The position numbers and the translations under genes were made by a program. Shown piece by piece: positions 30,688 to 45,737 of a stretch of DNA of 64,000 nucleotides. The notes beneath the pieces are model-generated. The model saw nothing but the letters and a program-made list of their open reading frames with translations. It did no database searches and had not been told where the DNA came from. Origin of the DNA: Escherichia phage Es2; the sequence record OR515477.1, one strand, 5' to 3'. Numbering within the stretch: the first letter of the stretch is position 1; the number at the start of each line of letters is the position of its first letter.

Positions 30688-30705
30688 AGTTATCTAATTT
30701 GGAAA

Positions 30706-30890: not shown

Positions 30891-30911
30891 CCAAATTACT
30901 AAGGAAATAAT

Positions 30912-31457: not shown

Positions 31458-31514
31458 TGGTTAGGACATCAGGATTTCAATCTGAGAATCGGAGTTCAAT
31501 TCTCCGTGGGTGTA
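31443..31514 (+). tRNA. tRNA-Glu (anticodon TTC)
   Basis: Acceptor GCACCTA/TGGGTGT, anticodon loop ATTTCAA, T-arm CGGAG-TTCAATT-CTCCG, CCA encoded. Confidence 0.7.
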
Positions 31515-31523
31515 CCAAATTCT

Positions 31524-31599
31524 GCATTCCTAGAGTGTTACTGGACAGCATGTCGGTCTCCAAAACCGTACGGTCTAGGTTCGAGTCCTAGTAGGTTTG
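31524..31599 (+). tRNA. tRNA-like, possible tRNA-Trp (anticodon CCA)
   Basis: Good T-arm CTAGG-TTCGAGT-CCTAG and anticodon loop CTCCAAA, but acceptor stem pairing is poor; ends approximate. Confidence 0.35.
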
Positions 31600-31608
31600 C
31601 CAAAATTT

Positions 31609-31680
31609 GCACCTTTAGCTGAGATGGATTAGCGCTTGCCTGAAGAGCTTGAGAGGTTCGTTCGATTCGAACAGGGTGCA
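31609..31680 (+). tRNA. tRNA, possible tRNA-Phe (anticodon GAA)
   Basis: Acceptor GCACCTT/AGGGTGC, T-arm GTTCG-TTCGATT-CGAAC, CCA encoded; anticodon stem weak (loop CTGAAGA). Confidence 0.5.
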
Positions 31681-31685
31681 CCAAT

Positions 31686-31973
31686 TTGAGGGAGCTGCTG
31701 ATGCATCCTGAAAACTTCTTTATTTACTGCGCTGATAAGTCGCTGAAACGTAGAATTAACAAAGTCTATCATTATAGTGCTAGTCAACAGCCTTATGTAT
31801 ACGCTTTTGACGGTGATCACATTCCACTAGAACAATTATCTTGTGATTACATGATATTGAAGAACTTTGATGAGACGAAGATCTCGAGCGTTCATAATCG
31901 ACAGAATCCATTGACGTGGAAATATAAGAAGAAAAAGAAAGGCATCAAATTCTTAAAAAATGTAGTTGCTTAG
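31686..31973 (+). CDS. hypothetical protein
   Basis: 95 aa ORF; a promoter overlaps its 3' end. Confidence 0.45.
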   Translation: MRELLMHPENFFIYCADKSLKRRINKVYHYSASQQPYVYAFDGDHIPLEQLSCDYMILKNFDETKISSVHNRQNPLTWKYKKKKKGIKFLKNVVA

Positions 31974-31994
31974 TTTCCAAAAGTTCTGTATAAT
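31966..31994 (+). promoter_or_regulatory. early-type sigma70 promoter
   Basis: TTGCTT, 17 bp, TGTATAAT. Confidence 0.6.
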
Positions 31995-32005
31995 AATTAC
32001 ATAAA

Positions 32006-32248
32006 TTGAACTGGAGAAGCAACATGACAGAACAAGAATTGAATGAACGTAAGCTGGTAATGCTTCGCTTACTAAATATTTTCTCTGGTATGGACGGTGG
32101 AATTGACTTTGTTCATCTACGTTCTTTCGTAGAAGAAGCTGAAGGCGAATCTATCACTAAAATCCTTAAACACATGGGATTACTTTTAGATGCTGCTAAT
32201 GTGGCTACTGAATATAAAATAGAAGATCTACCGGAGCGTGTTAAATGA
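32006..32248 (+). CDS. hypothetical protein
   Basis: 80 aa ORF after promoter 31966-31994. Confidence 0.5.
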   Translation: MNWRSNMTEQELNERKLVMLRLLNIFSGMDGGIDFVHLRSFVEEAEGESITKILKHMGLLLDAANVATEYKIEDLPERVK

Positions 32249-32436
32249 AACGATTAGTTAGATTTAAGTGTTGTGGTTCCGAGCACATTTTCACACATCT
32301 TCGTGAATTTAAAATGTGTGATTGTGGTAAATCAGGCTATGACTCAGGAGATGGGTTCTACACCCGTACTCTAGGGAACTTCAATGATCTAGAATTTGAA
32401 GATCTCGAAAAACAAGATAAACCGACCGTTGGCTGA
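32245..32436 (+). CDS. small Cys-rich protein
   Basis: 63 aa, CCGSEH...CDCG motif; 3' end overlaps tRNA-Cys. Confidence 0.45.
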   Translation: MKRLVRFKCCGSEHIFTHLREFKMCDCGKSGYDSGDGFYTRTLGNFNDLEFEDLEKQDKPTVG

Positions 32437-32495
32437 ATGGCTTAGGCGAAGGATTGCAAATCCTTTTTATGTGAGTTCAAATCTCATGCGGTCGT
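32423..32495 (+). tRNA. tRNA-Cys (anticodon GCA)
   Basis: Acceptor CGACCGT/GCGGTCG, anticodon stem-loop AAGGA-TTGCAAA-TCCTT, T-arm GTGAG-TTCAAAT-CTCAT, CCA encoded. Confidence 0.7.
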
Positions 32496-32501
32496 CCAAT
32501 T

Positions 32502-32640
32502 TGCTGAAAGAATTGTTAAATCAATTCAGGCACGCGTAGGAACACTGTCTCCGTAATTGAAAGATGAGGCACGGTTTGGAGAGGTATGCCGCTACACGCT
32601 ACGGTGCTAACTCCGTCTAGGTGAAAATCCTAGTCAGCAA
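32502..32640 (+). ncRNA. long tRNA-like element (~139 nt)
   Basis: 7 bp acceptor-like pairing TTGCTGA/TCAGCAA, D-arm-like hairpin GAATTG-TTAAAT-CAATTC, T-arm-like CTAGG-TGAAAAT-CCTAG; no ORF. Confidence 0.35.
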
Positions 32641-32650
32641 TATAAATTTA

Positions 32651-32730
32651 GGGTCGTTAGCCAAGCGGTTTGGCGGTGGACTGTTAATCCATGTCGAAAG
32701 ACAACGTAGGTTCGAATCCTACACGGCCCG
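32651..32730 (+). tRNA. tRNA-Asn (anticodon GTT)
   Basis: Acceptor GGGTCGT/ACGGCCC, anticodon loop CTGTTAA, extended variable region, T-arm GTAGG-TTCGAAT-CCTAC, CCA encoded. Confidence 0.65.
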
Positions 32731-32835
32731 CCAAATTCTGTGTAGAGTTAAGTAAACCGGTAGCCAACCAGCTATCATTGCTGATATCGAATTCAGCCAC
32801 AGATACCATTTTCATTAATAACTGAGGAAACAAGC

Positions 32836-33021
32836 ATGTCCAAGAATGTAATTGCACAGCTAGAAGTTCATCGTGATAACACAGCTAATAACATTAAGTG
32901 CCGACAAAAAGATATTGAAGCTCGAAAGGCTGATCTTTTAATGAGTATTCGAGAGCTTAATGTACGGAAAGAGTTTCTTAAAGAACTTAATGCAGCTATT
33001 GAAAAACTCAAAGTTGAGTAA
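32836..33021 (+). CDS. hypothetical protein
   Basis: 61 aa ORF, coiled-coil-like. Confidence 0.4.
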   Translation: MSKNVIAQLEVHRDNTANNIKCRQKDIEARKADLLMSIRELNVRKEFLKELNAAIEKLKVE

Positions 33022-33030
33022 ATAAATTAT

Positions 33031-33104
33031 GCGACCGGGGCTGGCTTGGTAATGGTACTCCCCTGTCACGGGAGGGAATGTGGGTTCAAATCCCATCGGT
33101 CGCG
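33031..33104 (+). tRNA. tRNA-Asp (anticodon GTC)
   Basis: Acceptor GCGACCG/CGGTCGC, anticodon stem-loop CTCCC-CTGTCAC-GGGAG, T-arm GTGGG-TTCAAAT-CCCAT, CCA encoded. Confidence 0.75.
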
Positions 33105-33132
33105 CCAAATTAATTTAGTATGAGAATATACT

Positions 33133-33480
33133 ATGCGTAATGCTAAAGAAGAGTTGTTACTTGCCTTAAAAAATACTAATTCTGAAGTTAAATGTATTAA
33201 AATAGAATTCGGGTATTATGGGGATAAAAAAGTTTGGGTATTACCTTTAGGTTATACAGAAAAAGATATTGAGGATTTTCTTAATAATCTAGACTTTAAG
33301 TACGATTCTGGGTATGGTGGGCAATTACTTTATGGTAATGTATGGTTTGCCGACGGAACTTGGCTAGAACGTGGGGAATACGATGGTGCTGAGTGGTGGG
33401 AGTACAAAGCTACCCCGGAAATTCCAGAGGAATGCCGAACAATTAATGGTGAAGTAGATAATACTTTACTATTAAACTAA
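33133..33480 (+). CDS. hypothetical protein
   Basis: 115 aa ORF. Confidence 0.5.
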   Translation: MRNAKEELLLALKNTNSEVKCIKIEFGYYGDKKVWVLPLGYTEKDIEDFLNNLDFKYDSGYGGQLLYGNVWFADGTWLERGEYDGAEWWEYKATPEIPEECRTINGEVDNTLLLN

Positions 33481-33602
33481 AAGAATTTCAGTGCAGAACA
33501 CGGAGCTAGCAATTCGGAAGTGCTGACTCATGATAAGCTGCCTATGTACTTGCTAAGCGGTCGTGTCCAAGACTCGGACTCTTGCACTGAAAACAATCAA
33601 AC

Positions 33603-33723
33603 ATTCTAGCGTGGTTGATGGGGAAACCAGCTTGGCTAGGGCAGAAGCTCGTTCGATTCGAGTGAAAGAATGGTTCTCGTAAGTCCGCACAAGTGATAGC
33701 AGGTTCGAGTCCTGTCTAGAATG
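33603..33723 (+). ncRNA. long tRNA-like element (~121 nt)
   Basis: Perfect 7 bp acceptor pairing ATTCTAG/CTAGAAT, T-arm GCAGG-TTCGAGT-CCTGT, internal second T-arm-like GCTCG-TTCGATT-CGAGT; too long for a canonical tRNA. Confidence 0.4.
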
Positions 33724-33731
33724 ACACTATA

Positions 33732-33859
33732 AAGTTTACTTATTATGTAGGTTCCGATAGATCGGCGGGTCTATTCTGGCATTTAAGAGAAGTCTCGCAA
33801 ACTTCTTTGTCAGCCGTGGGGTTGGTAGCCTCCAGGTGGCCTACACAATAAGTAAATTT
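33732..33859 (+). ncRNA. long hairpin element (20 bp stem enclosing ~88 nt)
   Basis: AAGTTTACTTATTATGTAGG (33732-33751) pairs with CCTACACAATAAGTAAATTT (33840-33859); sub-hairpins inside; no ORF. Confidence 0.4.
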
Positions 33860-33872
33860 ATTAAAAATTCAT

Positions 33873-33901
33873 TTGCTATTTTTCTTAATTATCTGTATAA
33901 T
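33873..33901 (+). promoter_or_regulatory. early-type sigma70 promoter
   Basis: AAAAATTCATTTGCTA, 17 bp, TGTATAAT. Confidence 0.6.
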
Positions 33902-33933
33902 ATATTTTATAAAGTGAAGAGAAGGAAAGCAAA

Positions 33934-34092
33934 ATGAAACACAAGATAGCCCAAGTTTTTATGGCATTATGGTGTATGCCAATAGCTATAACAGCATTTA
34001 ATCTAGATACTTTTACTATAGAAGAAAAATGTATCGGATTAGTTAGCGGCTTTAGTATGCTTGGCTTATCTTTGTTGTGGTTGAAGAAATAA
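33934..34092 (+). CDS. small hydrophobic protein
   Basis: 52 aa ORF MKHKIAQVFMALWCMPIAITAF... after promoter 33873-33901; below track cutoff. Confidence 0.4.
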   Translation: MKHKIAQVFMALWCMPIAITAFNLDTFTIEEKCIGLVSGFSMLGLSLLWLKK

Positions 34093-34096
34093 TATT

Positions 34097-34171
34097 CTCC
34101 GTGTAGCTCAGTTTGGCCAGAGCGTTTCGTTTGGGGCGATAGGGTCGGGGGTTCAAATCCTCCCACGGAGA
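34097..34171 (+). tRNA. tRNA-Pro (anticodon TGG)
   Basis: Acceptor CTCCGTG/CACGGAG, D-arm GCTC..GAGC, anticodon loop TTTGGGG, T-arm GGGGG-TTCAAAT-CCTCC, CCA encoded. Confidence 0.7.
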
Positions 34172-34180
34172 CCAAACAAT

Positions 34181-34255
34181 TGCGGGTTAGATCTCTGGTA
34201 GAGATCGCTAGTCTCATAAGCTAGAAAGAGGTAGGTTCGATTCCTGCACCCGCTT
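34181..34255 (+). tRNA. tRNA-Met/Ile2 (anticodon CAT)
   Basis: Acceptor TGCGGGT/ACCCGCT (1-72 mismatch), anticodon stem-loop CTAGT-CTCATAA-GCTAG, T-arm GTAGG-TTCGATT-CCTGC, CCA encoded. Confidence 0.65.
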
Positions 34256-34278
34256 CCATTTTAATAGAGGATTTCGAA

Positions 34279-34446
34279 ATGAAAGTATTTCGATTAGTAG
34301 TAAGTGACAAACGGTTAGGTAAGAATACATCAAAATCCCTACTCGCTCATTACGGTAAAAATTGGGATGAAGTAATGGCAGAGTTTAGTACTAATCACCC
34401 TTACTTGAAAGTTCACTCTATTAAAGAAGTATATAATGGTTACTAA
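34279..34446 (+). CDS. hypothetical small protein
   Basis: 55 aa ORF with GAGGA RBS between tRNAs; below track cutoff. Confidence 0.4.
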   Translation: MKVFRLVVSDKRLGKNTSKSLLAHYGKNWDEVMAEFSTNHPYLKVHSIKEVYNGY

Positions 34447-34447
34447 T

Positions 34448-34523
34448 AGATCGCTAGCTCAATAGGTTTAGTAGCATCCGACTTTTAATCGGAAGGTTCT
34501 GGGTTCGAGTCCCAGGCGATCTA
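34448..34523 (+). tRNA. tRNA-Lys (anticodon TTT)
   Basis: Acceptor AGATCGC/GCGATCT, anticodon stem-loop TCCGA-CTTTTAA-TCGGA, T-arm CTGGG-TTCGAGT-CCCAG, CCA encoded. Confidence 0.75.
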
Positions 34524-34530
34524 CCAAATT

Positions 34531-34601
34531 GCTCGGTTAGTTTAATGGGAGAACCCCGTCTTTACACGGCGGTTGAGATAGTTCAATTCTATCACCGAGT
34601 A
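34531..34601 (+). tRNA. tRNA-Val (anticodon TAC)
   Basis: Acceptor GCTCGGT/ACCGAGT, anticodon loop TTTACAC, T-arm GATAG-TTCAATT-CTATC, CCA encoded. Confidence 0.7.
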
Positions 34602-34623
34602 CCAATTAACTCAAAATAAGGAA

Positions 34624-34983
34624 TTGCAAATGCAATTATCAAGCAAGATTCAAGGTTATTTCGGTCATGTAACAATGGAGTTCGCTATCTCTAAAGGTTG
34701 GGACTTCGAACAAGATTTAGCTGAGTTCTACAAAGATATTGATCTGAACGTACCGTACATGGGACTTTCTACTGGTCAGGAGATCACAGAAGCCGATGTA
34801 TTCAAGGCAAGTCAAGGTGAGGTAACACCTAGTTTTGCCGAGTTCTGGTTAGGCATTACGTTAAAAGAAGATGCACCAGATAGTGGTGTACTAATGTCTA
34901 GTATGCACTCTGGAAGTTCCGATTACCTTTTCATTAGCGATGTTAAGGAAATACAAGAAGTCTGCAAAAATGTACTTGCTTGA
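34624..34983 (+). CDS. hypothetical protein
   Basis: 119 aa ORF with AAGGA RBS. Confidence 0.5.
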   Translation: MQMQLSSKIQGYFGHVTMEFAISKGWDFEQDLAEFYKDIDLNVPYMGLSTGQEITEADVFKASQGEVTPSFAEFWLGITLKEDAPDSGVLMSSMHSGSSDYLFISDVKEIQEVCKNVLA

Positions 34984-35004
34984 TGCTTAATTTCTTGTTA
35001 TAAT
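34976..35004 (+). promoter_or_regulatory. early-type sigma70 promoter
   Basis: TTGCTT, 17 bp, TATAAT; followed by hairpin GATGAGGA-GAAA-TCCTCATC. Confidence 0.55.
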
Positions 35005-35242
35005 ATTTATATAAATTGATGAGGAGAAATCCTCATCATAGTTCACTAAGGTATTAGCTCGACCTAGGACTGGCTGCCAAAAAGCACGATCCCTACGATT
35101 CGGGAAAAGTTCTAGATTGGTCCACTAGATTCAGCGGCAACTGAATAGTGTATTGGGTTTGCGAGATGACGTAGTTCCTTCCGCTCTAAGCGAAGGTGCT
35201 GTAGTTACGCCGAGCTAATAGCCTTAGTAAACTAAAGAATTT

Positions 35243-35318
35243 GGGGAATGGGTCTGCATGGAGTGGACACCTCGCTTGCACCGAGGACATCAGAACGGTT
35301 CGATTCCGTTATTCTCCA
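35243..35318 (+). tRNA. tRNA-Ala (anticodon TGC)
   Basis: Acceptor GGGGAAT/ATTCTCC, anticodon stem-loop CCTCG-CTTGCAC-CGAGG, T-arm AACGG-TTCGATT-CCGTT, CCA encoded. Confidence 0.7.
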
Positions 35319-35326
35319 CCAAATAC

Positions 35327-35400
35327 GCGTGATTGATGGAATGGGCATACATACCGTCCTTAGAAGTCGGGTTTTGAGGGTTCGAATCCCTTGTCACGCA
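35327..35400 (+). tRNA. tRNA with anticodon TAG (Leu-decoding; class I architecture)
   Basis: Acceptor GCGTGAT/GTCACGC, anticodon loop CTTAGAA, short variable arm, T-arm GAGGG-TTCGAAT-CCCTT, CCA encoded. Confidence 0.55.
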
Positions 35401-35515
35401 CCAAATTTGATGGTCAGAGTAAATTAAACCTACTATCTCGGTTGAGCTGTTTTAATGGGTTCGAATCCCAGCGGGGCGTAACTGCCTGGTGTGATAGAGG
35501 CATCATCTTATTATT

Positions 35516-35603
35516 GGAAGAGCAAATCGAATTGGCGACGAAAACCGCTTGGAAAGTGGCTGACTGGTAAAACGGCTTGAGAGTTCAAATCTCTCCTCTT
35601 CCG
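35516..35603 (+). tRNA. tRNA-Ser (anticodon GGA)
   Basis: Acceptor GGAAGAG/CTCTTCC, anticodon loop TTGGAAA, 18 nt variable arm, T-arm GAGAG-TTCAAAT-CTCTC, CCA encoded. Confidence 0.7.
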
Positions 35604-35618
35604 CCAAACAATTTATAT

Positions 35619-35710
35619 GGTAGGTCAATCCAATGGCTGGCGCTGGACTCCGACTTGAAATCGGTTGATCGTAGTGATACGGTGTAAGGGTTCGATCCCC
35701 TTACCTACCT
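35619..35710 (+). tRNA. tRNA-Ser (anticodon TGA)
   Basis: Acceptor GGTAGGT/ACCTACC, anticodon loop CTTGAAA, 20 nt variable arm, T-arm AAGGG-TTCGATC-CCCTT, CCA encoded. Confidence 0.7.
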
Positions 35711-35716
35711 CCAAAT

Positions 35717-35850
35717 CTTGAAGTATGCCGGAATCGGTAGACGGGGCTGCCTAAAAGGTTTATAGGGAACATCCACTCCCTGCAACATACCTCATAAAGC
35801 GGCTGAGATAAATGGTCTATCTCGTGAAGGTTCAAGTCCTTCTGCTTCTT
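35717..35850 (+). ncRNA. long tRNA-like element (~134 nt)
   Basis: Acceptor-like pairing TGAAGTA/TGCTTCT (6 of 7), T-arm GAAGG-TTCAAGT-CCTTC, internal D-arm-like hairpins; no CCA, no ORF. Confidence 0.35.
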
Positions 35851-35964
35851 GATACATCTATGGCTCAAAGTGTAACGGTGCTATTTGATGCTCTTGGTAA
35901 GACTTCCCCGACATGCGTTCGGGAGTAAGCTGCTAAGACTAGAGTAGAAGAGTTTCTGAGAGCC

Positions 35965-36084
35965 GCCACAATTGAAAATTCGTACTCGTCTTGAGCTGCG
36001 CGCAATAGGAGATAACTTGATTAGTATTCTAGAACATGCTAATTGAGGAAGGTTTCGCTAACCCTGCGAGTTTTCAATTGTGGC
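35965..36084 (+). ncRNA. long hairpin element (18 bp stem enclosing ~85 nt) abutting tRNA-His
   Basis: GCCACAATTGAAAATTCG (35965-35982) pairs with CGAGTTTTCAATTGTGGC (36067-36084); the 3' arm overlaps the tRNA-His acceptor. Confidence 0.4.
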
Positions 36085-36153
36085 TATATCATAATTGGTT
36101 AATGATCCTGATTGTGAATCAGGCCTATGTGGATTCGAATTCCACTAGCCACC
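36080..36153 (+). tRNA. tRNA-His (anticodon GTG)
   Basis: Acceptor GTGGCTA/TAGCCAC, D-arm TCAT..ATGA, anticodon stem-loop CCTGA-TTGTGAA-TCAGG, T-arm GTGGA-TTCGAAT-TCCAC, CCA encoded. Confidence 0.7.
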
Positions 36154-36180
36154 CCAAATTAACTTAAATAGGAAATAAAT

Positions 36181-36387
36181 ATGGCTGATTTCTGCAAACA
36201 ATGCTCCATTGATATGTGGGGTAAAGATACTGGTGATCTTTCTGGTTTGATTACAGAAGCTGAAGTTAAAGAAGGCTACGGTGCTGCTGTGATCTGCGAA
36301 GGATGCGGAGTTATTCGAGTAGATCATGAAGGCAAACGTTTAGAAGATCCAAAAAGTATTAAGAAGAAGGTTAGCCAAGTAGGTTAA
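36181..36387 (+). CDS. small zinc-ribbon protein
   Basis: CKQCS...CEGCG motifs, 68 aa; 3' end overlaps tRNA-Gln. Confidence 0.5.
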   Translation: MADFCKQCSIDMWGKDTGDLSGLITEAEVKEGYGAAVICEGCGVIRVDHEGKRLEDPKSIKKKVSQVG

Positions 36388-36437
36388 GGCTGGGGTCTCT
36401 GAAATCCTGATCAGTGGTTCGAATCCACTACCTTCTG
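36365..36437 (+). tRNA. tRNA-Gln (anticodon CTG)
   Basis: Acceptor AGAAGGT/ACCTTCT, anticodon loop CTCTGAA, T-arm AGTGG-TTCGAAT-CCACT, CCA encoded. Confidence 0.6.
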
Positions 36438-36446
36438 CCAAACAAT

Positions 36447-36521
36447 TGGGGATTAGCTTAGCTTGGCCTAAAGCTTCGGCCTTTGAAGTCGAGATCATTG
36501 GTTCAAATCCAATATCCCCTG
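36447..36521 (+). tRNA. tRNA-Gln (anticodon TTG)
   Basis: Acceptor TGGGGAT/ATCCCCT, D-arm GCTT..AAGC, anticodon stem-loop TCGGC-CTTTGAA-GTCGA, T-arm ATTGG-TTCAAAT-CCAAT, CCA encoded. Confidence 0.65.
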
Positions 36522-36534
36522 CCAGCTAAATTAA

Positions 36535-36607
36535 TGCGTGATTAGTTCAGTGGCTAGAATAACTGGCTTCCAACCAGTAGACACGAGTTCGACTCTCGTA
36601 TCCCGCA
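36535..36607 (+). tRNA. tRNA-Gly (anticodon TCC)
   Basis: Acceptor GCGTGAT/ATCCCGC, anticodon stem-loop ACTGG-CTTCCAA-CCAGT, T-arm ACGAG-TTCGACT-CTCGT, CCA encoded. Confidence 0.7.
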
Positions 36608-36624
36608 CCAAATAAGGAAACGTT

Positions 36625-36846
36625 ATGCACGTTTTTGAGTTTCGTAATAAAAATACTGATAAGCGAGTTATCATTATTGGAGAAACATACCGAGCATATG
36701 AACAAACTGACGGCTCTGTTATCTTGAATGATGAGAAAGGAGGTTTTAGCTTTTATCCAGAAGAACCTTATGAAGAGTTTCGTACTAAGTTTCTTTTACC
36801 AGACTGGCTAGCAGTAGCCGAGCAACGAGAATCCGAAGATGGCTGA
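36625..36846 (+). CDS. hypothetical protein
   Basis: 73 aa ORF, AAGGAAAC RBS. Confidence 0.5.
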   Translation: MHVFEFRNKNTDKRVIIIGETYRAYEQTDGSVILNDEKGGFSFYPEEPYEEFRTKFLLPDWLAVAEQRESEDG

Positions 36847-37001
36847 TAACCTAAAATTAAGGGTCGACAAACAAAAGAAATACATTGAGGTTGAATTAGG
36901 CGAAGAACGATTAAAGCTAACTTTCGAGTTTCTTCAGCAGTTGGCTATGACAGTTATGACTGATAAGTCTCCTGTTATTGAAAAAGAAATCCCGTTGAAA
37001 T
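36840..37001 (+). CDS. hypothetical small protein
   Basis: About 53 aa ORF (MADNLKLRVDKQKKYIEV...) overlapping the previous stop; coordinates +/-2. Confidence 0.35.
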
Positions 37002-37012
37002 AACGGGATCAT

Positions 37013-37085
37013 CGCTCCTAAAGCATTGCTGGCGATGCAGTTGCCTTGTAAGCATCTGAACCGGGTTCGATTCCTGGTGGGAGCA
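37013..37085 (+). tRNA. tRNA-Thr (anticodon TGT)
   Basis: Acceptor GCTCCTA/TGGGAGC, D-arm GCAT..ATGC, anticodon loop CTTGTAA, T-arm CCGGG-TTCGATT-CCTGG, CCA encoded. Confidence 0.65.
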
Positions 37086-37103
37086 CCAAATTTAAAAATT
37101 CAT

Positions 37104-37132
37104 TTGCTTTCTCTCTTATTTATTGTTATAAT
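37104..37132 (+). promoter_or_regulatory. early-type sigma70 promoter
   Basis: AAAAATTCATTTGCTT, 17 bp, TATAAT. Confidence 0.6.
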
Positions 37133-37162
37133 ATTCATATAAATTAATGAGAGGGAAGCCAA

Positions 37163-37456
37163 ATGAAACGTTATCTTTCTGTTGTGTTCCAAACTGGTGG
37201 TCAACGCTATACTTACGAATTTCCTGGCTCTTGGAAGATCAAAGAAGGTGATCAAGTAGTAGTGTTAACACCGCGTGAGGGTTTTAAGGTAGTAACGGTT
37301 AAGCAAGTATTTCCAAAAGAGCGTGAACCAGCTAAAGGCATTCGCTATAAGATGATTCATGGTGTAGTTCGTCAAGTACCACGAGCGGAAGTCGAAATCA
37401 AAGTAGATAAAGATGGTAAACTTAAATATACCTCTTGCTTAGACGAGTTGCTATAA
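37163..37456 (+). CDS. hypothetical protein
   Basis: 97 aa ORF after promoter 37104-37132. Confidence 0.5.
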   Translation: MKRYLSVVFQTGGQRYTYEFPGSWKIKEGDQVVVLTPREGFKVVTVKQVFPKEREPAKGIRYKMIHGVVRQVPRAEVEIKVDKDGKLKYTSCLDELL

Positions 37457-37662
37457 TGAGGATTACTTTTACAGAAAAGATCATGAGTAATGGTGTTATG
37501 ATCATTACCGCATGGGATGGTAATCAGTGGTGTAGTGTTTCAGGTATTAAGCCTGAAGAACAAACACTAGATAATATCTCAAAGATTAAGCGAAGAATGA
37601 CAGAACGTGCACGACTTCCAGGTGCACCTAGAAATGGCAAACGTTCTGCTGCAAAATGTTAA
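37456..37662 (+). CDS. hypothetical protein
   Basis: 68 aa ORF starting at overlapping TAATG. Confidence 0.45.
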   Translation: MRITFTEKIMSNGVMIITAWDGNQWCSVSGIKPEEQTLDNISKIKRRMTERARLPGAPRNGKRSAAKC

Positions 37663-37663
37663 T

Positions 37664-37737
37664 GCTTCGGTAGCTTAGCGATCTAAAGCACTCGGCTGAT
37701 AACCGAGAGATCGGGGGTTTAAATCCCTCCCGGAGTA
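37664..37737 (+). tRNA. tRNA-Ile (anticodon GAT)
   Basis: Acceptor GCTTCGG/CCGGAGT, D-arm GCTT..AAGC, anticodon stem-loop CTCGG-CTGATAA-CCGAG, unusual T-loop TTTAAAT, CCA encoded. Confidence 0.7.
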
Positions 37738-37836
37738 CCAAATTTAGGAATTAAGACTATGCGTCCAGGAAAGTTTAAAAAAGCTAATTGGTCTAAAGAG
37801 TATAAAGAATACTTACTTAGTCTAGTAAAACATAAT

Positions 37837-37909
37837 AGTTAGTTGGCAGAGTGGTTATGCACCTCCTTCATACGGAGCGACTACAGTGGTTCAAATCCAC
37901 TACTAACTA
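37837..37909 (+). tRNA. tRNA-Met/Ile2 (anticodon CAT)
   Basis: Acceptor AGTTAGT/ACTAACT, anticodon loop TTCATAC, T-arm AGTGG-TTCAAAT-CCACT, CCA encoded. Confidence 0.65.
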
Positions 37910-37949
37910 CCATTAAAAGAGCTAGAGATAGCTAACTTTAGGAGCAGCT

Positions 37950-40068: not shown

Positions 40069-40377
40069 ATGGAAAAGAACGTGAAAAAACTAAACATCAA
40101 CAGCACAGTGCAGATTCCAGCAACTAAGGATGTTTTAACATTCCTACGGAGTGAAAACGCTCAGTTTTGGCATGATCATGTTGTAAAGAACGGTAGTACT
40201 CCAGATGTAGTTTACTTTGCTAAAAAACGTATCGAAGAATATAAAGATCCAGAGATTAAAGATGGGATGATAACTATGCAATTGTGGGTAGCCATGAATA
40301 CGTTTGGACCTACTATGAGTCTAGGAGTTACTCCACTGTTTACTAATATTCTAATTAATGAAAAGGATCTGAAATGA
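40069..40377 (+). CDS. hypothetical protein
   Basis: 102 aa ORF starting MEKNVKKLN with GAAGGGGAAGAG RBS. Confidence 0.5.
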   Translation: MEKNVKKLNINSTVQIPATKDVLTFLRSENAQFWHDHVVKNGSTPDVVYFAKKRIEEYKDPEIKDGMITMQLWVAMNTFGPTMSLGVTPLFTNILINEKDLK

Positions 40378-40658
40378 TTATCTCTCCATTTGCTCTTTGG
40401 TTCGTCATCGGATCTATAGTAGCTATTTACAGCTTGGTTGATGATCTGTATATTTCTAAGAATAAAGATGTAATATTATACATTATACATAAAACTCGAC
40501 CGTTAGATCTGCCTCCTCTTGATGATAAAACATTACTGAGATGTGCTAGATCTATGATATTTATTGTGGATATTCTTCTAGGCCCAACATCTGTGTTTTT
40601 CTTTTATAGAAAGACTCGTAATATGAAAAAATTTAAAGCTGAAATGCAGAATACCTAA
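40374..40658 (+). CDS. small membrane protein
   Basis: 94 aa with two hydrophobic segments; ATGA coupling. Confidence 0.5.
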   Translation: MIISPFALWFVIGSIVAIYSLVDDLYISKNKDVILYIIHKTRPLDLPPLDDKTLLRCARSMIFIVDILLGPTSVFFFYRKTRNMKKFKAEMQNT

Positions 40659-40768
40659 AGAACTCGCGTAGGACCGAGTTGCGTCACCTGCAACTGTTAC
40701 GGATAAGGGAGTCGTGCCCCTTAGTGCGGTAAGTGGTGAGGTGGCTGCTAGCCCTAACTGGAGATAAT

Positions 40769-41113
40769 ATGACTATATTACTAATTCTTGTTACAACTTG
40801 GTTTTTAATCGGTGCTGGATATGCGATAGCTATTATTAGACATTTGGATGAACATTCTGCTGAATGGTTTGTTAAGTATCTACGTATTGATGGTCAAGAA
40901 CAGAAGTTTAAAGACGAAAAGCAGAAAAAAGCAGTAAATAATATGACAGCCAAAGAATGCTTGTTCTACATGCGTATTGTAGGGTTCTTTGGACTATTAG
41001 TTGCTGGCCCAATTGGTTCTACCATTGCCCCATATAAAGAAACAGTTGCTGACATCAAATTGTGGAGAAATGCAGGGGTACTGCACAAAGCTAGAAAAAC
41101 TAATATTACATAA
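40769..41113 (+). CDS. membrane protein
   Basis: Start MTILLILVTTWFLIGAGYAIAII with GGAGA RBS; hydrophobic segments; terminator follows. Confidence 0.5.
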   Translation: MTILLILVTTWFLIGAGYAIAIIRHLDEHSAEWFVKYLRIDGQEQKFKDEKQKKAVNNMTAKECLFYMRIVGFFGLLVAGPIGSTIAPYKETVADIKLWRNAGVLHKARKTNIT

Positions 41114-41267: not shown

Positions 41268-41966
41268 ATGAGGATTATTTCTAAGTTCGCCGATGTGTAT
41301 GATTTGCAGAACAGTTTGTTTGACCCAGATCGTGTGTGGGAACGTAAAACTGAGGAGTTACTGGTTAAAGTAACCGATGATGCAGAAAAGAACATTGTGC
41401 ATACTCGCCAGGTATTTCGTGATGGTTCGCTATCTTTCCGTGGTGATTTCGAATACTTTGTAAACCCACTATTTGTTGCAGGTGAAGTTTACTGGTTACA
41501 CGAGCTGTACTGCTGGCATCCAGCATTTAGCTTCAAAACGTTCAACCTCGACACTATGTTCGATAAAATGGAAGAGATGGGATTGCATGCTCGCTCTTAC
41601 TTAATGGATAAGAGTCGCGGAGATGTTCGTGAAACAATGCGTGATTTGCTCGCTGAAGCAAAACCTAAAGCAGAACGTATCTTATCCGAACTGCGTGTAC
41701 CGATTGCATATGTGAAAGGTATTAAGAAGAACGATAACGATGATGTTCGTAACTTCGTGATTCAGACTAACATTCGTTTCCATCAGTCAGGTATTCCGTG
41801 GCAGGAAATTGAAAGTAACTTATACCGTTTACACCAAGTTCTCGAACAGTATATCTTCGGTGTACTAGGAACTGGTGAGCCTGATATGATTAAAGTATCA
41901 GATAAAGACAGGTTAGCAGCGCATGGATTTGATACAAAAACTTCTTTCAGGAATATGGCAAGGTAA
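41268..41966 (+). CDS. hypothetical protein
   Basis: 232 aa ORF after promoter 41208-41236. Confidence 0.55.
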   Translation: MRIISKFADVYDLQNSLFDPDRVWERKTEELLVKVTDDAEKNIVHTRQVFRDGSLSFRGDFEYFVNPLFVAGEVYWLHELYCWHPAFSFKTFNLDTMFDKMEEMGLHARSYLMDKSRGDVRETMRDLLAEAKPKAERILSELRVPIAYVKGIKKNDNDDVRNFVIQTNIRFHQSGIPWQEIESNLYRLHQVLEQYIFGVLGTGEPDMIKVSDKDRLAAHGFDTKTSFRNMAR

Positions 41967-42372
41967 GTGGTATATCCTGGGAGCAGGTCTAGCGATAGGC
42001 ATCGGGTTCGGTGCTTATCACTTAGTAGATAAAGTGGAGACTTTAGCGGGAGATCTTGCGGTAGCTACTAAAAAGATCTCTTCTCTAGAAACTTCCCTTA
42101 ATAAGGTGAAAGCTGAGAGCGAACTTCGGGAGACTCGAATGAACCAGTATTTCACAATGAATAATATTTCGCAAGCAGATCTAGACAAAAAGATTAAGCA
42201 GCTAGATAAAGCTCTTAGTCGTCAAGATATTATAGCTGCAAAGCCTGGATTGGTAACATTAATAGCTAAAAAGCAGAGTAGAGAGTTCGAGGAAAGATTA
42301 GCATGTTTAACTGGAAACTTGGAATACTGCTCGCAGCCGCAATCACAATCACAGGCTGTGCAGAAGAAATAA
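41923..42372 (+). CDS. putative i-spanin-like protein (TM plus coiled coil)
   Basis: N-terminal TM (WYILGAGLAIGIGFGAYHLV) followed by coiled-coil; downstream lipoprotein gene starts inside its 3' end. Confidence 0.45.
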   Translation: MDLIQKLLSGIWQGKWYILGAGLAIGIGFGAYHLVDKVETLAGDLAVATKKISSLETSLNKVKAESELRETRMNQYFTMNNISQADLDKKIKQLDKALSRQDIIAAKPGLVTLIAKKQSREFEERLACLTGNLEYCSQPQSQSQAVQKK

Positions 42373-42656
42373 AACCAGAGCCTTCTCATGAGTTAAAGCA
42401 AGCTCATGTAGACTGGCCTAAAGGACTTCAACCTTGTAGCTTTGACTTTAAGTTTGAAAAGAAATTAGCTACAAATGGGGAAGATGGCGTAGTAGTTGTT
42501 GTACCATATAAAGATTGGAATGCAAAAGCAAAATGTGAGGAAGCAGTTTACTCTTACATTTCACGACTGACTGGTATGGTTTGCTTCTATCGCCAAGATT
42601 TACAAGAAAAACGTTGCTTAGTTTACTATCCACCAATTAACAATAGGAAAGATTAA
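42303..42656 (+). CDS. putative o-spanin-like lipoprotein
   Basis: Lipoprotein signal MFNWKLGILLAAAITITGC (lipobox ITGC); overlaps the upstream gene in another frame (Rz/Rz1-like arrangement). Confidence 0.45.
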   Translation: MFNWKLGILLAAAITITGCAEEIKPEPSHELKQAHVDWPKGLQPCSFDFKFEKKLATNGEDGVVVVVPYKDWNAKAKCEEAVYSYISRLTGMVCFYRQDLQEKRCLVYYPPINNRKD

Positions 42657-43408
42657 TGTCAGTATTAGTCGGTTTACATGGTGAAGCTGGTTCGGGAAAA
42701 GATACCGTTGCAAAATTAATTATCGATTGGTGTAATGACACGTATCCAACGTGTTTATCCCGTCGTTATAGTTTTGCTAAGCCCGTTTATGAACTTGCAT
42801 CCGTAATCCTCGGTGTAACTCCAGAGTTTCTAGGAGAGCGCAGAGGAAAAGAGATTGCTCAATGGTTTACGGTCACACAATCTCAATTGGAGCGAGCTAG
42901 AGATGTGTGGTTTAAATACGGTATCGATAAGTTTGAAGACTTCTCGTACGTTTGGCCTATTTTTGAGGAAAAATATCTTAATCCTCAACAACTTATCTCA
43001 GAGAATAAAGAAGACGGACTTTATAGTTTATTTATTTCTCCGAGAAAAATGTTACAGCTCGTAGGGACAGAGCTAGGAAGGCAGCTGGTGCATGAACGCA
43101 TTTGGCTCATAATTCTGGAGCAATCCATCGCTAAAGACGACCCAGACGTCGCCGTAATAACAGATGTTAGATTCCCCAATGAAGGAGAGCTACTCAGAGA
43201 AACAAACCATTTAGATATGGATTCTTTGATAGTAAATGTAGTACCCGCTGAGCAGAAGTTTACTATTAAATCAGATCATCCATCTGAAAGTGGTATTCCT
43301 GCAAAATATATTACTCACGAATTAGTTAATAAATTCGATGGTATCAATAACCTTAAACTAGAAGTTTATAACTTCTGTGACTTAGAGCTAGAACCACTAG
43401 TTGGATAA
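42656..43408 (+). CDS. deoxynucleoside monophosphate kinase-like P-loop kinase
   Basis: Walker A LHGEAGSGKDT resembles phage dNMP kinases. Confidence 0.55.
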   Translation: MSVLVGLHGEAGSGKDTVAKLIIDWCNDTYPTCLSRRYSFAKPVYELASVILGVTPEFLGERRGKEIAQWFTVTQSQLERARDVWFKYGIDKFEDFSYVWPIFEEKYLNPQQLISENKEDGLYSLFISPRKMLQLVGTELGRQLVHERIWLIILEQSIAKDDPDVAVITDVRFPNEGELLRETNHLDMDSLIVNVVPAEQKFTIKSDHPSESGIPAKYITHELVNKFDGINNLKLEVYNFCDLELEPLVG

Positions 43409-43420
43409 TCAAGGATCGCT

Positions 43421-44020
43421 ATGACTAATAAAAAAGAAGAAAAGACTAACCTGTTTCACTCCATTCGCCAATCTAACGAGTATACCTTTTTCTTTGATGA
43501 AGAATTAGGCCCACCAGATGAATACCGTGATTTATCAATGGTACTTATGCAGGCAAATGAGGACGACGAAATTAATCTGATGATTAATGGTCCGGGTGGT
43601 TATGTTGATACTGCTGCACAGTTATCTAACTTAATTGCTAATTGCCGTGGAACAGTTATAGGGCATCTGATTGGTCCTAGTGCTTCTGCTTACTGCACAA
43701 TTTTCCTATCCTGTCATGGGTGGGTAGTACATCCACATGCTACGCTAATGGGGCACACGTTCTCTGGCGGATTCTGTGAGAAGGGTCAAGAAATTAAGAA
43801 AGCCTATGAATCTTACAACAAGTTCGTAGAAGATATGATGCTAGATGTCTACTATCCGTTCTTCTCAATAGACGAAATCGACGAGATGGTAAAAGACAAC
43901 AAAAATATCTATCTAGATAGCAAAGAAATCCATAAGCGTATTGAAATCTTGGCAAAATATCGATCTGAGCAATATAATAAAGCCCAGTTACCTCAATTAG
44001 AGGAGCACAGTGAAGAGTAA
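43421..44020 (+). CDS. ClpP-like serine peptidase
   Basis: INGPGGYVDTAAQL (ClpP INSPGG-like), GPSASAY serine region, downstream His residues. Confidence 0.55.
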   Translation: MTNKKEEKTNLFHSIRQSNEYTFFFDEELGPPDEYRDLSMVLMQANEDDEINLMINGPGGYVDTAAQLSNLIANCRGTVIGHLIGPSASAYCTIFLSCHGWVVHPHATLMGHTFSGGFCEKGQEIKKAYESYNKFVEDMMLDVYYPFFSIDEIDEMVKDNKNIYLDSKEIHKRIEILAKYRSEQYNKAQLPQLEEHSEE

Positions 44021-44029
44021 GTAGTTTTA

Positions 44030-44060
44030 AGCCAGGGTTTAACGACCCTGGCTTTTCTTT
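44030..44060 (+). terminator. rho-independent terminator
   Basis: GCCAGGG...CCCTGGC hairpin followed by TTTTCTTTT. Confidence 0.65.
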
Positions 44061-44176
44061 TATCTAAAATTCTTCTTGACAACGACAAAATTTTATGCTC
44101 CAGAAGTGATCTTTAAAAACACATTGTAATTTTCCTCCAAAATTAGTATAATGGTACTGGTTAGAGGAGGTTACAA

Positions 44177-44833
44177 TTGGAAAAGTTCTTACAATTATTA
44201 ACGGTACTGCTCCAAGAAGCGAAAGATCCAGCATCGCTTCTTAAACGTCTGCTAACTATCTTAGTTGCTGTCATTATTTTCTTATTTGTTAGTAATACTA
44301 GCGAGGTGATGTCATTCTTAAAGACTTTCTCCACGTCTGCGGTTCTACAGGATGTTCAAACTCAAAGGATAGATAACTTTCCTAATGTAGCTAGAGAAAA
44401 AAGCATGGTACTCTTTTCTCAAACGGGTGCGGATGCTGTTTTTGTCGTCAAGTATAAACCCGATGCCATTAATGATTATTCTAACATTATTGCATGGGAA
44501 AGCAATGCGCAATTAGATAGGGCTGACTTGGCCGATAAAGCGGTAAATAAAACGTCTGAGCTATATAGACGTCACTTGGAAGGCTTTAACTACGCATCGG
44601 ATTTAAGTGTAAAAGTAAATAAATACATGGGGTTAGATATACCTGCGTTTAAGAACGTTACTTTTAATTACATATACACTTGTCCATATTTCAATCTAAA
44701 CAATATCTATGCTGGATATATTGGTATTGCTTGGAAAGATAATCCTGTAGATGCAGCCGATTCTGAGAAATTTAACGAGTATTTAACAAAGCTCTGTTCC
44801 CCACAACAGAGATCTTTAGGTAGATCAATATGA
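44177..44833 (+). CDS. putative holin
   Basis: 218 aa with N-terminal TM (LTILVAVIIFLFV), directly upstream of and overlapping the endolysin gene. Confidence 0.6.
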   Translation: MEKFLQLLTVLLQEAKDPASLLKRLLTILVAVIIFLFVSNTSEVMSFLKTFSTSAVLQDVQTQRIDNFPNVAREKSMVLFSQTGADAVFVVKYKPDAINDYSNIIAWESNAQLDRADLADKAVNKTSELYRRHLEGFNYASDLSVKVNKYMGLDIPAFKNVTFNYIYTCPYFNLNNIYAGYIGIAWKDNPVDAADSEKFNEYLTKLCSPQQRSLGRSI

Positions 44834-45243
44834 GTTTTAAATTTGGTAAAAATAGTGAAAAACAATTAGCTACCGTTAAGCCAGAGCTACAAAAAGTAGC
44901 TCGTAGAGCTTTAGAATTATCTCCATATGATTTCACGATCGTACAGGGTATTCGTACAGTAGCACAAAGTGCCCAGAATATTGCTAATGGTACTTCATTT
45001 TTAAAAGATCCTAGTAAAAGCAAGCATATTACTGGGGATGCCCTTGATTTTGCTCCATATATTAATGGCAAAATTGATTGGAATGATTTAGAAGCATTTT
45101 GGGCAGTTAAAAAGGCTTTTGAACAAGCAGGTAAAGAACTAGGCATTAAACTTCGTTTTGGTGCTGATTGGAATGCTTCGGGAGACTATCACGATGAAAT
45201 AAAACGTGGTACCTATGATGGCGGTCATGTCGAACTAGTTTAA
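44830..45243 (+). CDS. lys: endolysin, L-alanyl-D-glutamate peptidase type
   Basis: 137 aa; H..D...H metal-site pattern (KHITGDALD ... DGGHVELV); matches the T5 endolysin as recalled from memory. Confidence 0.75.
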   Translation: MSFKFGKNSEKQLATVKPELQKVARRALELSPYDFTIVQGIRTVAQSAQNIANGTSFLKDPSKSKHITGDALDFAPYINGKIDWNDLEAFWAVKKAFEQAGKELGIKLRFGADWNASGDYHDEIKRGTYDGGHVELV

Positions 45244-45320: not shown

Positions 45321-45737
45321 ATGTTTGCAGAACTATTCACTATGATGCTGCTAGGTATCTGGAAAATAAGTCTAGTAGTATTCGTTTTAATGATAGTTTT
45401 TACTATCCTTGCATTAACTACCCGAAATAGCTTACTAATAAAGGTTATTCACGGACTAGAGTATATAATTATGGGTTCATTCGGCGTTTGTAAATGCAAT
45501 TGCCATAGAGATACGAAATATTGTTGGTTATGGATGGAACTAGAGAATCCTATATCCATAGCTTTGGCTGTTTCATTCGGCATGATTCTTATGGCCCTTA
45601 CTCTAGCATTAATTCCTTTGATGTTAGCTGGGGGAGTTACAGCGTATTTCACCCTTTTCTCCCCGATACTTATGTACTCAATTTACCCAATAACTATGTA
45701 TCTAGTTAGGAAAAGATTTATACATGCAGTAGATTAA
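45321..45737 (+). CDS. integral membrane protein
   Basis: 138 aa with 3-4 hydrophobic segments. Confidence 0.5.
   Translation: MFAELFTMMLLGIWKISLVVFVLMIVFTILALTTRNSLLIKVIHGLEYIIMGSFGVCKCNCHRDTKYCWLWMELENPISIALAVSFGMILMALTLALIPLMLAGGVTAYFTLFSPILMYSIYPITMYLVRKRFIHAVD

What the first reader, a model, noticed from the sequence alone, without database searches (positions are those of the whole stretch)
41923..42656. Spanin-like overlapping gene pair located away from holin/endolysin
A TM plus coiled-coil protein (41923-42372) and a lipoprotein with lipobox ITGC (42303-42656) overlap in different frames, as Rz/Rz1 pairs do, but lie about 2 kb upstream of the holin and are separated from it by dNMP kinase and ClpP-like genes. 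The o-spanin candidate is unusually long (117 aa).
Basis: inference. Interest (0 to 1): 0.4.

Follow-up and report, generated by a model that had tools for sequence, protein, structure and literature searches.

The report
Known T5-type spanin gene pair
These two overlapping genes are the already catalogued inner- and outer-membrane spanin pair of a T5-like phage, which most likely breaks the host's outer membrane at the last step of lysis; the finding is correct but ordinary.

Summary
ORFs 41923-42372 (149 aa) and 42303-42656 (117 aa) exist, overlap by 70 nt in different frames, and lie upstream of dNMP kinase, a Clp-like protease, a T-type holin and an endolysin. The window is a T5-like phage (Tequintavirus), 98% identical to several sequenced phages. 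The two proteins are 92% identical to T5.045 and T5.044, which RefSeq annotates as Rz-like spanins. They match PHROG spanin families at 4e-37 and 3.5e-30. Kongari et al. 2018 define a "T5" i-spanin/o-spanin family with overlapped architecture and a 70-bp overlap. The o-spanin has a signal peptide, an ITGC lipobox and Ala at +2. Its C-terminal Cys94/Cys105 align with Cys87/Cys98 of T4 PseT.2, which that paper shows are essential. The gene order spanins, kinase, Clp, holin, endolysin is conserved in four Demerecviridae genera. T4's homologous spanins also lie away from its holin and endolysin. A length of 117 aa is normal for this family (94-128 aa). No direct experiment on T5 spanins was found, so function rests on homology to T4 PseT.3/PseT.2, which complement lambda Rz/Rz1. 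Verdict: interpretation supported, already known, low interest.

The parts
41923..42372 (+). i-spanin gene (149 aa). Type II inner-membrane protein: short cytoplasmic tail, one TMD, helical periplasmic domain, and a C-terminal CLTGNLEYC motif (Cys128, Cys136).
   Evidence: ORF. phrog_739 'Rz-like spanin' at 4e-37. 92% identical to T5.045. Named i-spanin or Rz-like spanin by NCBI and UniRef in many phages. Near-identical to the EPS7 i-spanin in SpaninDB.
41971..42027 (+). Coding region for the predicted N-terminal transmembrane segment of the i-spanin, residues 17-35 (YILGAGLAIGIGFGAYHLV).
   Evidence: It is the only hydrophobic stretch, with a KD 19-window mean of 1.55. It aligns with the TMD of T4 PseT.3. 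A low-confidence AF2 model is helical over residues 3-78.
42303..42656 (+). o-spanin gene (117 aa precursor, 99 aa mature). Outer-membrane lipoprotein with four periplasmic cysteines: C45, C78, C94 and C105.
   Evidence: ORF. phrog_812 'Rz-like spanin' at 3.5e-30. 92% identical to T5.044. 29% identical to T4 PseT.2, E 3e-7. The profile search finds 28 representative clusters; the 24 full-length ones all keep the N-terminal lipobox Cys, and all but one (P0077, whose C-terminus diverges) keep the C-terminal Cys pair.
42303..42359 (+). Signal peptide plus lipobox: MFNWKLGILLAAAITITG|C. The Cys19 codon is 42357-42359 and Ala is at +2, which predicts Lol sorting to the outer membrane.
Evidence: Lipobox pattern match and Cys positions. 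Hydrophobic core KD of 2.65 and the +2 residue.
42303..42372 (+). 70-nt dual-coding overlap. The i-spanin C-terminus (CLTGNLEYCSQPQSQSQAVQKK) is read offset by 2 nt from the o-spanin signal sequence. The o-spanin ATG lies inside the i-spanin Ala-Cys128 codons (gcA TGt).
   Evidence: Codon-level comparison of the window, T5, Sugarland, Stubb and PR1. The start position is the same in all five, with overlaps of 70, 70, 88, 34 (corrected start) and 49 nt. 'T5 spanins overlap by 70 bp'.
42582..42617 (+). Codons for Cys94 to Cys105 of the o-spanin (motif C-F-Y-R-Q-D-L-Q-E-K-R-C), equivalent to the Cys87/Cys98 pair of T4 PseT.2.
   Evidence: Alignments. Both T4 cysteines are essential for lysis (Kongari et al. 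2018).
41910..41913 (+). Shine-Dalgarno-like AGGT, 9 nt before the i-spanin ATG.
   Evidence: Sequence. The same element is recorded for EPS7 in SpaninDB.
42289..42293 (+). Shine-Dalgarno-like GAGGA, 9 nt before the o-spanin ATG and inside the i-spanin coding sequence.
   Evidence: Sequence. Equivalent ribosome-binding sites are annotated in Sugarland and Stubb.
42656..44020 (+). Context: dNMP kinase (42656-43408) and Clp-like protease (43421-44020), which separate the spanins from the holin.
   Evidence: phrog_139 and PF21448; phrog_1827 and PF00574. The same order is seen in T5, phiLLS, Sugarland, Stubb and PR1.
44029..44152 (+). Context: terminator-like hairpin (44029-44054; 11 bp stem, 6 GC pairs) followed by a promoter-like site (44124-44152; TTGTAA-17-TATAAT). 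This puts holin/endolysin in a transcription unit of their own.
   Evidence: Consensus scan only. Terminators are annotated at the same position in Sugarland and PR1. A 2024 paper on the T5 holin/endolysin operon is cited.
44177..45243 (+). Context: T-type holin (44177-44833, 218 aa) and L-alanyl-D-glutamate-peptidase-type endolysin (44830-45243, 137 aa). The spanins are predicted to act after these two proteins.
   Evidence: PF11031 at 2.2e-113 and phrog_860; phrog_465 at 2.2e-54.

Best explanation
This is the two-component spanin of a T5-like phage, orthologous to T5.045 and T5.044.

Inferred mechanism, taken from the lambda Rz/Rz1 and T4 PseT.3/PseT.2 models:
- The 149-aa i-spanin inserts in the inner membrane by its single N-terminal TMD (N-in, C-out). 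It projects a helical, partly coiled-coil domain into the periplasm.
- The 117-aa o-spanin is exported and lipidated on Cys19. Signal peptidase II cleaves it, and Lol sorts it to the inner leaflet of the outer membrane, because Ala rather than Asp is at +2.
- The C-terminal regions of the two proteins bind, forming complexes that span the periplasm through the peptidoglycan mesh. Disulfides stabilise them, probably including the Cys94/Cys105 pair equivalent to T4 Cys87/Cys98.
- When the T-type holin releases the endolysin and the wall is degraded, the complexes are freed. They then disrupt the outer membrane, probably by fusing it with the inner membrane, and lysis is complete.

Shown here: the ORFs, their signals, the overlap, orthology to the T5 family, remote homology to the T4 spanins, and conserved synteny. 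Inferred: topology, lipidation, complex formation, disulfide pattern and the role in lysis.
For: - The window is a Tequintavirus, 98.5% DNA identity over 4.1 kb to sequenced T5-like phages.
- PHROG spanin families hit at 4e-37 and 3.5e-30.
- 92% identity to T5.045 and T5.044, both annotated Rz-like spanin with notes on similarity to T4 PseT.3/PseT.2.
- Identical coordinates are annotated as spanins in phiLLS. Stitch, GEC_vB_N7 and IrmaTschudi annotate the same genes as o-spanin and i-spanin.
- Kongari et al. 2018 list T5 i- and o-spanin families of 10 members with a 70-bp overlap. SpaninDB records the near-identical EPS7 proteins.
- T4 PseT.3/PseT.2 complement lambda Rz-am/Rz1-am, and Cys87/Cys98 are essential.
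- The window proteins align with the T4 pair at E 5e-6 and 3e-7, sharing the AKPGL motif and the C-x-YR-x-x-L-x-E-x-x-C motif.
- Lipobox, Ala at +2 and the hydrophobic core are present.
- All 24 full-length representative relatives keep the lipobox Cys; all but P0077 keep the C-terminal Cys pair.
- The overlap start point is conserved in five genera.
Against: - No experiment on T5-family spanins was found in the searchable literature, so function rests on homology at under 30% identity to the tested T4 pair.
- The i-spanin TMD is glycine-rich and scores just below the usual hydropathy cut-off (1.55 against 1.6).
- AF2 models of both proteins were low-confidence (pLDDT 40.8 and 46.8) and give no structural support.
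- There is no Pfam or NCBIfam hit in the local libraries and no solved structure.
- The genes sit in an operon with nucleotide-metabolism genes, behind a promoter separate from holin/endolysin. Their timing could therefore differ from that of a classical lysis cassette.
Confidence: 0.93

Rival explanations
1. The pair are envelope proteins with a mainly non-lytic role. They could act in superinfection exclusion, receptor masking or envelope remodelling, and are expressed early together with the dNMP kinase. In that case the spanin resemblance is only topological.
For: The genes share an apparent transcription unit with dnk and a Clp-like protease. A terminator plus promoter separates them from holin/endolysin. 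T5 is known to encode another lipoprotein, Llp, that blocks FhuA (mentioned). No direct lysis test on T5 spanins was found.
Against: Sequence homology links them to T4 PseT.3/PseT.2, not just shared topology, and includes the cysteine pair essential for T4 spanin function. T4's functional spanins are likewise far from its holin and endolysin. Llp is a separate gene described elsewhere in T5. No other spanin candidate is annotated in the lysis region of these phages.
Confidence: 0.04
2. The overlapping 117-aa ORF is a chance or non-expressed reading frame, and only the 149-aa membrane protein is real.
For: Several GenBank records annotate only the i-spanin or leave the second ORF unnamed, for example vB_Sen-E22 and T5_ev212.
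Against: The ORF is present with at least 80% coverage in 554 of 559 matching phage records. It is conserved as protein down to 25-46% identity in other genera and in T4-like phages, where it does not overlap its partner. Lipobox and cysteines are conserved across 24 full-length representative clusters. It has its own GAGGA ribosome-binding site.
Confidence: 0.01

Closest known systems
Phage T5 spanins T5.045 (i-spanin) and T5.044 (o-spanin): the 'T5' families of Kongari et al. 2018
   Same: 92% protein identity for both. Same lengths (147-149 and 117 aa), same 70-nt overlap, same lipobox ITGC, same six periplasmic cysteines and the same downstream gene order.
   Different: The first ~10 residues of the i-spanin differ: EPS7-type MDLIQKLLSGIWQGKW here, MRKWFVDLVWNNKM in T5. 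T5 also carries the homing endonuclease hegF immediately upstream, which this window lacks.
Phage T4 PseT.3 / PseT.2 spanins
   Same: Remote homologues at 28-29% identity (E 5e-6 and 3e-7). They share the TMD plus helical i-spanin with the AKPGL motif. They also share a lipoprotein o-spanin with a conserved C-terminal Cys pair spaced by 11 residues. Both pairs lie away from holin and endolysin.
   Different: In T4 the o-spanin start and the i-spanin stop share only 4 nt, an arrangement Kongari et al. class as 'separated', against the 70-nt overlap here. The T4 i-spanin has no cysteines and lacks the C-terminal CLTGN..C extension. The T4 o-spanin has two periplasmic cysteines rather than four. 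Identity is below the 40% family threshold used by Kongari et al.
Phage lambda Rz / Rz1
   Same: Same functional class and topology: a type II inner-membrane protein with a coiled coil plus an outer-membrane lipoprotein, read in different frames of shared DNA (established knowledge of the lambda lysis pathway).
   Different: No detectable sequence similarity: no Pfam family of any kind matched either protein at E <= 0.01. Lambda Rz1 is fully embedded in Rz, and by established knowledge is much shorter (60-aa precursor), proline-rich and unstructured. Here the o-spanin only overlaps its partner. It is 117 aa, and the related T4 PseT.2 is predicted to have beta-alpha-beta structure. Lambda's genes sit directly after S and R.

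Membership tests
Two-component spanin (functional class; Summer 2007 / Kongari 2018 criteria) | The i-spanin has a single N-terminal TMD (type II) followed by a largely helical, coiled-coil periplasmic domain. | tested here: met
   There is one hydrophobic segment, residues 17-35. Its KD of 1.55 is marginal. It aligns to the T4 PseT.3 TMD. SpaninDB lists the near-identical EPS7 protein as an i-spanin with a coiled coil at 33-75. The AF2 secondary structure is helical but low-confidence.
Two-component spanin (functional class; Summer 2007 / Kongari 2018 criteria) | The o-spanin has an outer-membrane lipoprotein signal: an SPase II signal peptide, a lipobox Cys, and no Asp at +2. | tested here: met
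   MFNWKLGILLAAAITITG|CA fits the PS51257-style pattern, with Ala at +2. The lipobox Cys is conserved in all 24 full-length representative relatives. No dedicated predictor such as LipoP or SignalP was available.
Two-component spanin (functional class; Summer 2007 / Kongari 2018 criteria) | The two genes are adjacent in embedded, overlapped or separated architecture, with the o-spanin starting within or after the i-spanin. | tested here: met
   Overlapped architecture, 70 nt, different frames.
Two-component spanin (functional class; Summer 2007 / Kongari 2018 criteria) | At least one periplasmic cysteine is available for intermolecular disulfide bonding. | tested here: met
   The i-spanin has Cys128 and Cys136. 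The o-spanin has Cys45, 78, 94 and 105 in addition to the lipid-modified Cys19.
Two-component spanin (functional class; Summer 2007 / Kongari 2018 criteria) | The pair is required for outer-membrane disruption, or complements lambda Rz/Rz1 amber mutants. | not testable with these tools
   This needs wet-lab work. It has been shown for the remote T4 homologues. No report for the T5 family was found.
T5 i-spanin / o-spanin sequence families (Kongari 2018: at least 40% identity over at least 40% of the periplasmic domain) | Sequence identity to T5.045 and T5.044 above the family threshold. | tested here: met
   92% identity over 139 of 149 aa, and 92% over 117 of 117 aa.
T4 PseT.3 / PseT.2 spanin families | At least 40% identity to the T4 proteins (family level), or significant remote homology with the essential Cys pair conserved (superfamily level). 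| tested here: inconclusive
   Family level is not met, at 28-29% identity. Superfamily level is met: E 5e-6 and 3e-7 in pairwise BLASTP, tblastn hit to PEi26 pseT.2 at 4e-4, and Cys94/Cys105 aligned to Cys87/Cys98.
Lambda Rz / Rz1 sequence families | Detectable sequence similarity to Rz or Rz1 profiles. | tested here: not met
   No Pfam hit of any kind at E <= 0.01 for either protein. The PHROG label 'Rz-like' is a functional name.

The most novel reading that the evidence does not exclude
The T5-type complex may use a different covalent architecture from both lambda and T4. The i-spanin carries a C-terminal C-x7-C extension, encoded entirely inside the o-spanin signal-sequence DNA. The o-spanin carries an extra Cys45/Cys78 pair, giving six periplasmic cysteines against two in T4. 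Together with expression from an early-type operon separate from holin/endolysin, this could reflect a different disulfide-isomerisation pathway. It could also reflect a pre-lysis role for the complex in the envelope.
Probability: 0.07. Interest if true: 0.35.

Novelty: already known. Interest (0 to 1): 0.07.

Why it matters
It matters little beyond correct annotation. The pair is a textbook example of the 'overlapped' spanin architecture in the T5 lineage. It is catalogued in SpaninDB and named in RefSeq.

Three practical points remain:
- Many GenBank records of T5-like phages still leave the o-spanin unnamed or unannotated.
- Two relatives appear to have mis-set start codons (Stubb o-spanin, PR1 i-spanin).
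- No T5-family spanin seems to have been tested experimentally, so its six-cysteine arrangement remains uncharacterised.

Tried and rejected
- AlphaFold2 on the o-spanin (6-sequence alignment) and the i-spanin (19-sequence alignment) gave pLDDT 40.8 and 46.8. That is too poor for fold searches, so none were run.
- Searches of PDB sequences gave nothing meaningful: best E 0.76 and 0.14.
- NCBIfam gave only sub-threshold hits. One was FtsL-like, 21 bits against a cut-off of 50, which merely reflects TM-plus-coiled-coil topology.
- Local Pfam gave no hit, although the protein database lists a precomputed PF26831.1 on o-spanin relatives. I could not look that family up.
- The word-indexed homologue search found only 5 o-spanin relatives. 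The exhaustive representative search was needed to see the wider family.
- Literature searches for T5.044/T5.045 and for T5 spanin experiments found nothing.
- I considered and rejected a chance ORF overlap, because of conservation across genera. I also rejected an Llp-like receptor-blocking lipoprotein, because Llp is a different gene and this one has homology to T4 PseT.2.
- The first T4 region I fetched was the wrong locus.

Full report
**Observation**

The window contains the two ORFs exactly as reported. One is 41923-42372 (149 aa, ATG) and the other is 42303-42656 (117 aa, ATG). They share 70 nt, and the second is read offset by 2 nt from the first.

Each has a plausible ribosome-binding site about 9 nt upstream: AGGT at 41910-41913 and GAGGA at 42289-42293.

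Downstream lie four genes:
- a dNMP kinase, 42656-43408 (phrog_139, PF21448);
- a Clp-like protease, 43421-44020 (phrog_1827, PF00574);
- a T-type holin, 44177-44833 (PF11031, 2.2e-113);
- a 137-aa peptidase-type endolysin, 44830-45243 (phrog_465).

**Identity of the window**

A 4.1-kb query around the finding is 98.5% identical to Citrobacter phage Cit2. It is 98% identical to phiLLS, NBSal005 and many other T5-like phages; 426 records cover at least 80% of it. The window also holds 23 tRNA genes at 27.4-37.9 kb. It is a Tequintavirus (Demerecviridae) genome segment.

**What the two genes are**

The 149-aa protein matches phrog_739 at 4e-37. The 117-aa protein matches phrog_812 at 3.5e-30. 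Both PHROGs are labelled Rz-like spanin.

RefSeq annotates ORFs at exactly these positions as Rz-like spanins in phiLLS. Other records call them i-spanin and o-spanin. In T5 itself the orthologues are T5.045 (147 aa) and T5.044 (117 aa). The original notes there point to T4 PseT.3/PseT.2. The window proteins are 92% identical to both.

Kongari et al. 2018 (PMC6139136) list a 'T5' i-spanin family and a 'T5' o-spanin family. The members are T5, EPS7, Stitch, SPC35, AKFV33, FFH1, DT57C, My1, phiR201 and Shivani. The paper classes them as overlapped and states that 'the T5 spanins overlap by 70 bp'.

The paper's supplement holds the EPS7 i-spanin, 149 aa and almost identical to the window protein. 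It records the same AGG(T) ribosome-binding site and a coiled coil at residues 33-75. It also lists o-spanins of 117 aa for EPS7, SPC35, Stitch and T5.

**Tests of the defining signals**

- **o-spanin signal.** The o-spanin begins MFNWKLGILLAAAITITG|C. It has a basic n-region and a hydrophobic core (KD 2.65), and the sequence fits the lipobox pattern. The residue after the lipidated Cys19 is Ala, which in enterobacteria predicts outer-membrane sorting.
- **i-spanin TMD.** The i-spanin has one hydrophobic, glycine-rich segment at residues 17-35. Its hydropathy (1.55) is just under the customary 1.6 threshold, so this point is met with a caveat. The segment does align with the TMD of T4 PseT.3.
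- **Structure models.** AF2 models of both proteins were of low confidence. I used them only as a weak indication of helicity. No solved structure or curated NCBIfam/Pfam model matches.

**Relationship to T4**

The two proteins align with T4 PseT.3 and PseT.2 at 28-29% identity, with pairwise E-values of 5e-6 and 3e-7. A tblastn search of the phage collection reaches pseT.2 of a T4-like Edwardsiella phage.

The conserved blocks are AKPGL in the i-spanin and C-x-Y-R-x-x-L-x-E-x-x-C at the o-spanin C-terminus. Cys94 and Cys105 of the window protein align with Cys87 and Cys98 of PseT.2. Kongari et al. showed that both of those cysteines are essential. They also showed that pseT.3/pseT.2 complement lambda Rz-am/Rz1-am.

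An exhaustive profile search found 28 representative clusters. All 24 full-length ones have a [G/A/S]-Cys lipobox at positions 10-22. All but one (P0077, whose C-terminus diverges) keep the C-terminal Cys pair. Lengths run from 94 to 128 aa. It is long only in comparison with lambda Rz1.

**Position relative to holin and endolysin**

The gene order is i-spanin, o-spanin, dNMP kinase, Clp-like protease, holin, endolysin. It is conserved in:
- Tequintavirus (T5 and phiLLS);
- Sugarlandvirus;
- Novosibvirus;
- Priunavirus.

A strong terminator-like hairpin (44029-44054) and a promoter-like site (44124-44152) separate the Clp-like gene from the holin. These are consensus matches only. Terminators are annotated at the same place in Sugarland and PR1.

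The homologous T4 spanins are likewise not located near t and e. Separation from the holin is therefore a lineage trait. It is not an anomaly and does not argue against spanin function.

**A detail of the overlap**

In all five genera compared, the o-spanin ATG lies inside the [Ala/Ser]-Cys codons of the i-spanin (gcA TGt). The i-spanin motif C-L-T-G-N is co-encoded with the o-spanin start M-x-N-W-K.

T4 PseT.3 ends just before this point and has no cysteines. The T5-lineage i-spanin thus carries a C-x7-C extension written over the o-spanin signal sequence. The T5-type o-spanin also has an extra Cys45/Cys78 pair. This makes six periplasmic cysteines against two in T4. Their bonding pattern is untested.

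**Mechanism (inferred)**

- The i-spanin is anchored in the inner membrane.
- The o-spanin is lipid-anchored in the outer membrane.
- The two bind through their C-terminal regions, forming disulfide-stabilised bridges across the periplasm.
- After holin-triggered endolysin action removes the peptidoglycan, the complexes disrupt the outer membrane.

The steps shown here are the sequence signals, orthology and remote homology. The steps inferred are topology, lipidation, complex formation and the lytic role. I found no experimental paper on T5-family spanins.

**Rivals**

- **A non-lytic envelope role.** The separate early-type operon suggests this. I cannot exclude it without experiments, but homology to the functional T4 pair makes it unlikely.
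- **A chance second ORF.** Conservation rules this out.

**Verdict**

The feature is already known and catalogued. Interest is low.

Noticed in passing
window 41268-41966 and 41923-41970; L007 (T5) 1246-1743: T5 carries the HNH homing endonuclease hegF (T5.046) between T5.047 and the i-spanin. The window lacks it. Here the T5.047 homologue overlaps the i-spanin start by 44 nt, and the i-spanin cytoplasmic tail is the EPS7 type (MDLIQKLLSGIWQGKW, 149 aa) rather than the T5 type (MRKWFVDLVWNNKM, 147 aa). Homing-endonuclease gain or loss seems to have rewritten the i-spanin N-terminus.
   Followed up: partly
L004 (Proteus phage Stubb) 3501-3812: The Stubb o-spanin is annotated from a TTG at 3525, and its note says the lipobox workflow failed. 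An in-frame ATG at 3501 gives MSNWRRGLLSIIVLGLVGC, with the same start position and motif as all other genera. The annotated start is probably wrong.
   Followed up: partly
L006 (Providencia phage PR1) 3097-3549: The PR1 gene labelled 'outer membrane lipoprotein i-spanin' starts at 3208 and has no TMD. An in-frame ATG at 3097 adds a segment with a clear TMD (…ANWATILILVLLILSGI…). Both the start and the product name look wrong.
   Followed up: partly
window 44029-44152: A strong terminator-like hairpin (11-bp stem, 6 GC pairs, T-run) is followed by a promoter-like site (TTGTAA-17-TATAAT) just upstream of the holin. This implies that spanins and holin/endolysin are separate transcription units.
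   Followed up: partly
window 45321-45737: A 138-aa protein with several hydrophobic segments (phrog_5944, unknown function) lies immediately after the endolysin. A gene of the same length is annotated at this position in phiLLS and Sugarland. It may be an uncharacterised membrane component associated with lysis.
   Followed up: no
window 43421-44020: A 199-aa Clp-protease-like protein (PF00574, 4.6e-8) sits in the early region between the spanins and the holin. It is distinct from a head-maturation protease by position. Its role and catalytic residues were not examined.
   Followed up: no
window 27428-37912: A cluster of 23 tRNA genes on the + strand, matching the tRNA-rich region annotated upstream of the spanins in T5.
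   Followed up: no
window 40374-41113: Two small ORFs (94 aa and 126 aa), each with two predicted hydrophobic segments, lie upstream of the spanin operon. By position they correspond to T5.049 and T5.048, which are annotated as having two transmembrane domains. Their function is unknown.
   Followed up: no
proteins P0001-P0005 (relatives of window 42303-42656): The protein database lists a precomputed Pfam family, PF26831.1, on o-spanin relatives. The local Pfam copy returned no hit for the window protein, so a newer Pfam release probably already models this o-spanin family.
   Followed up: no
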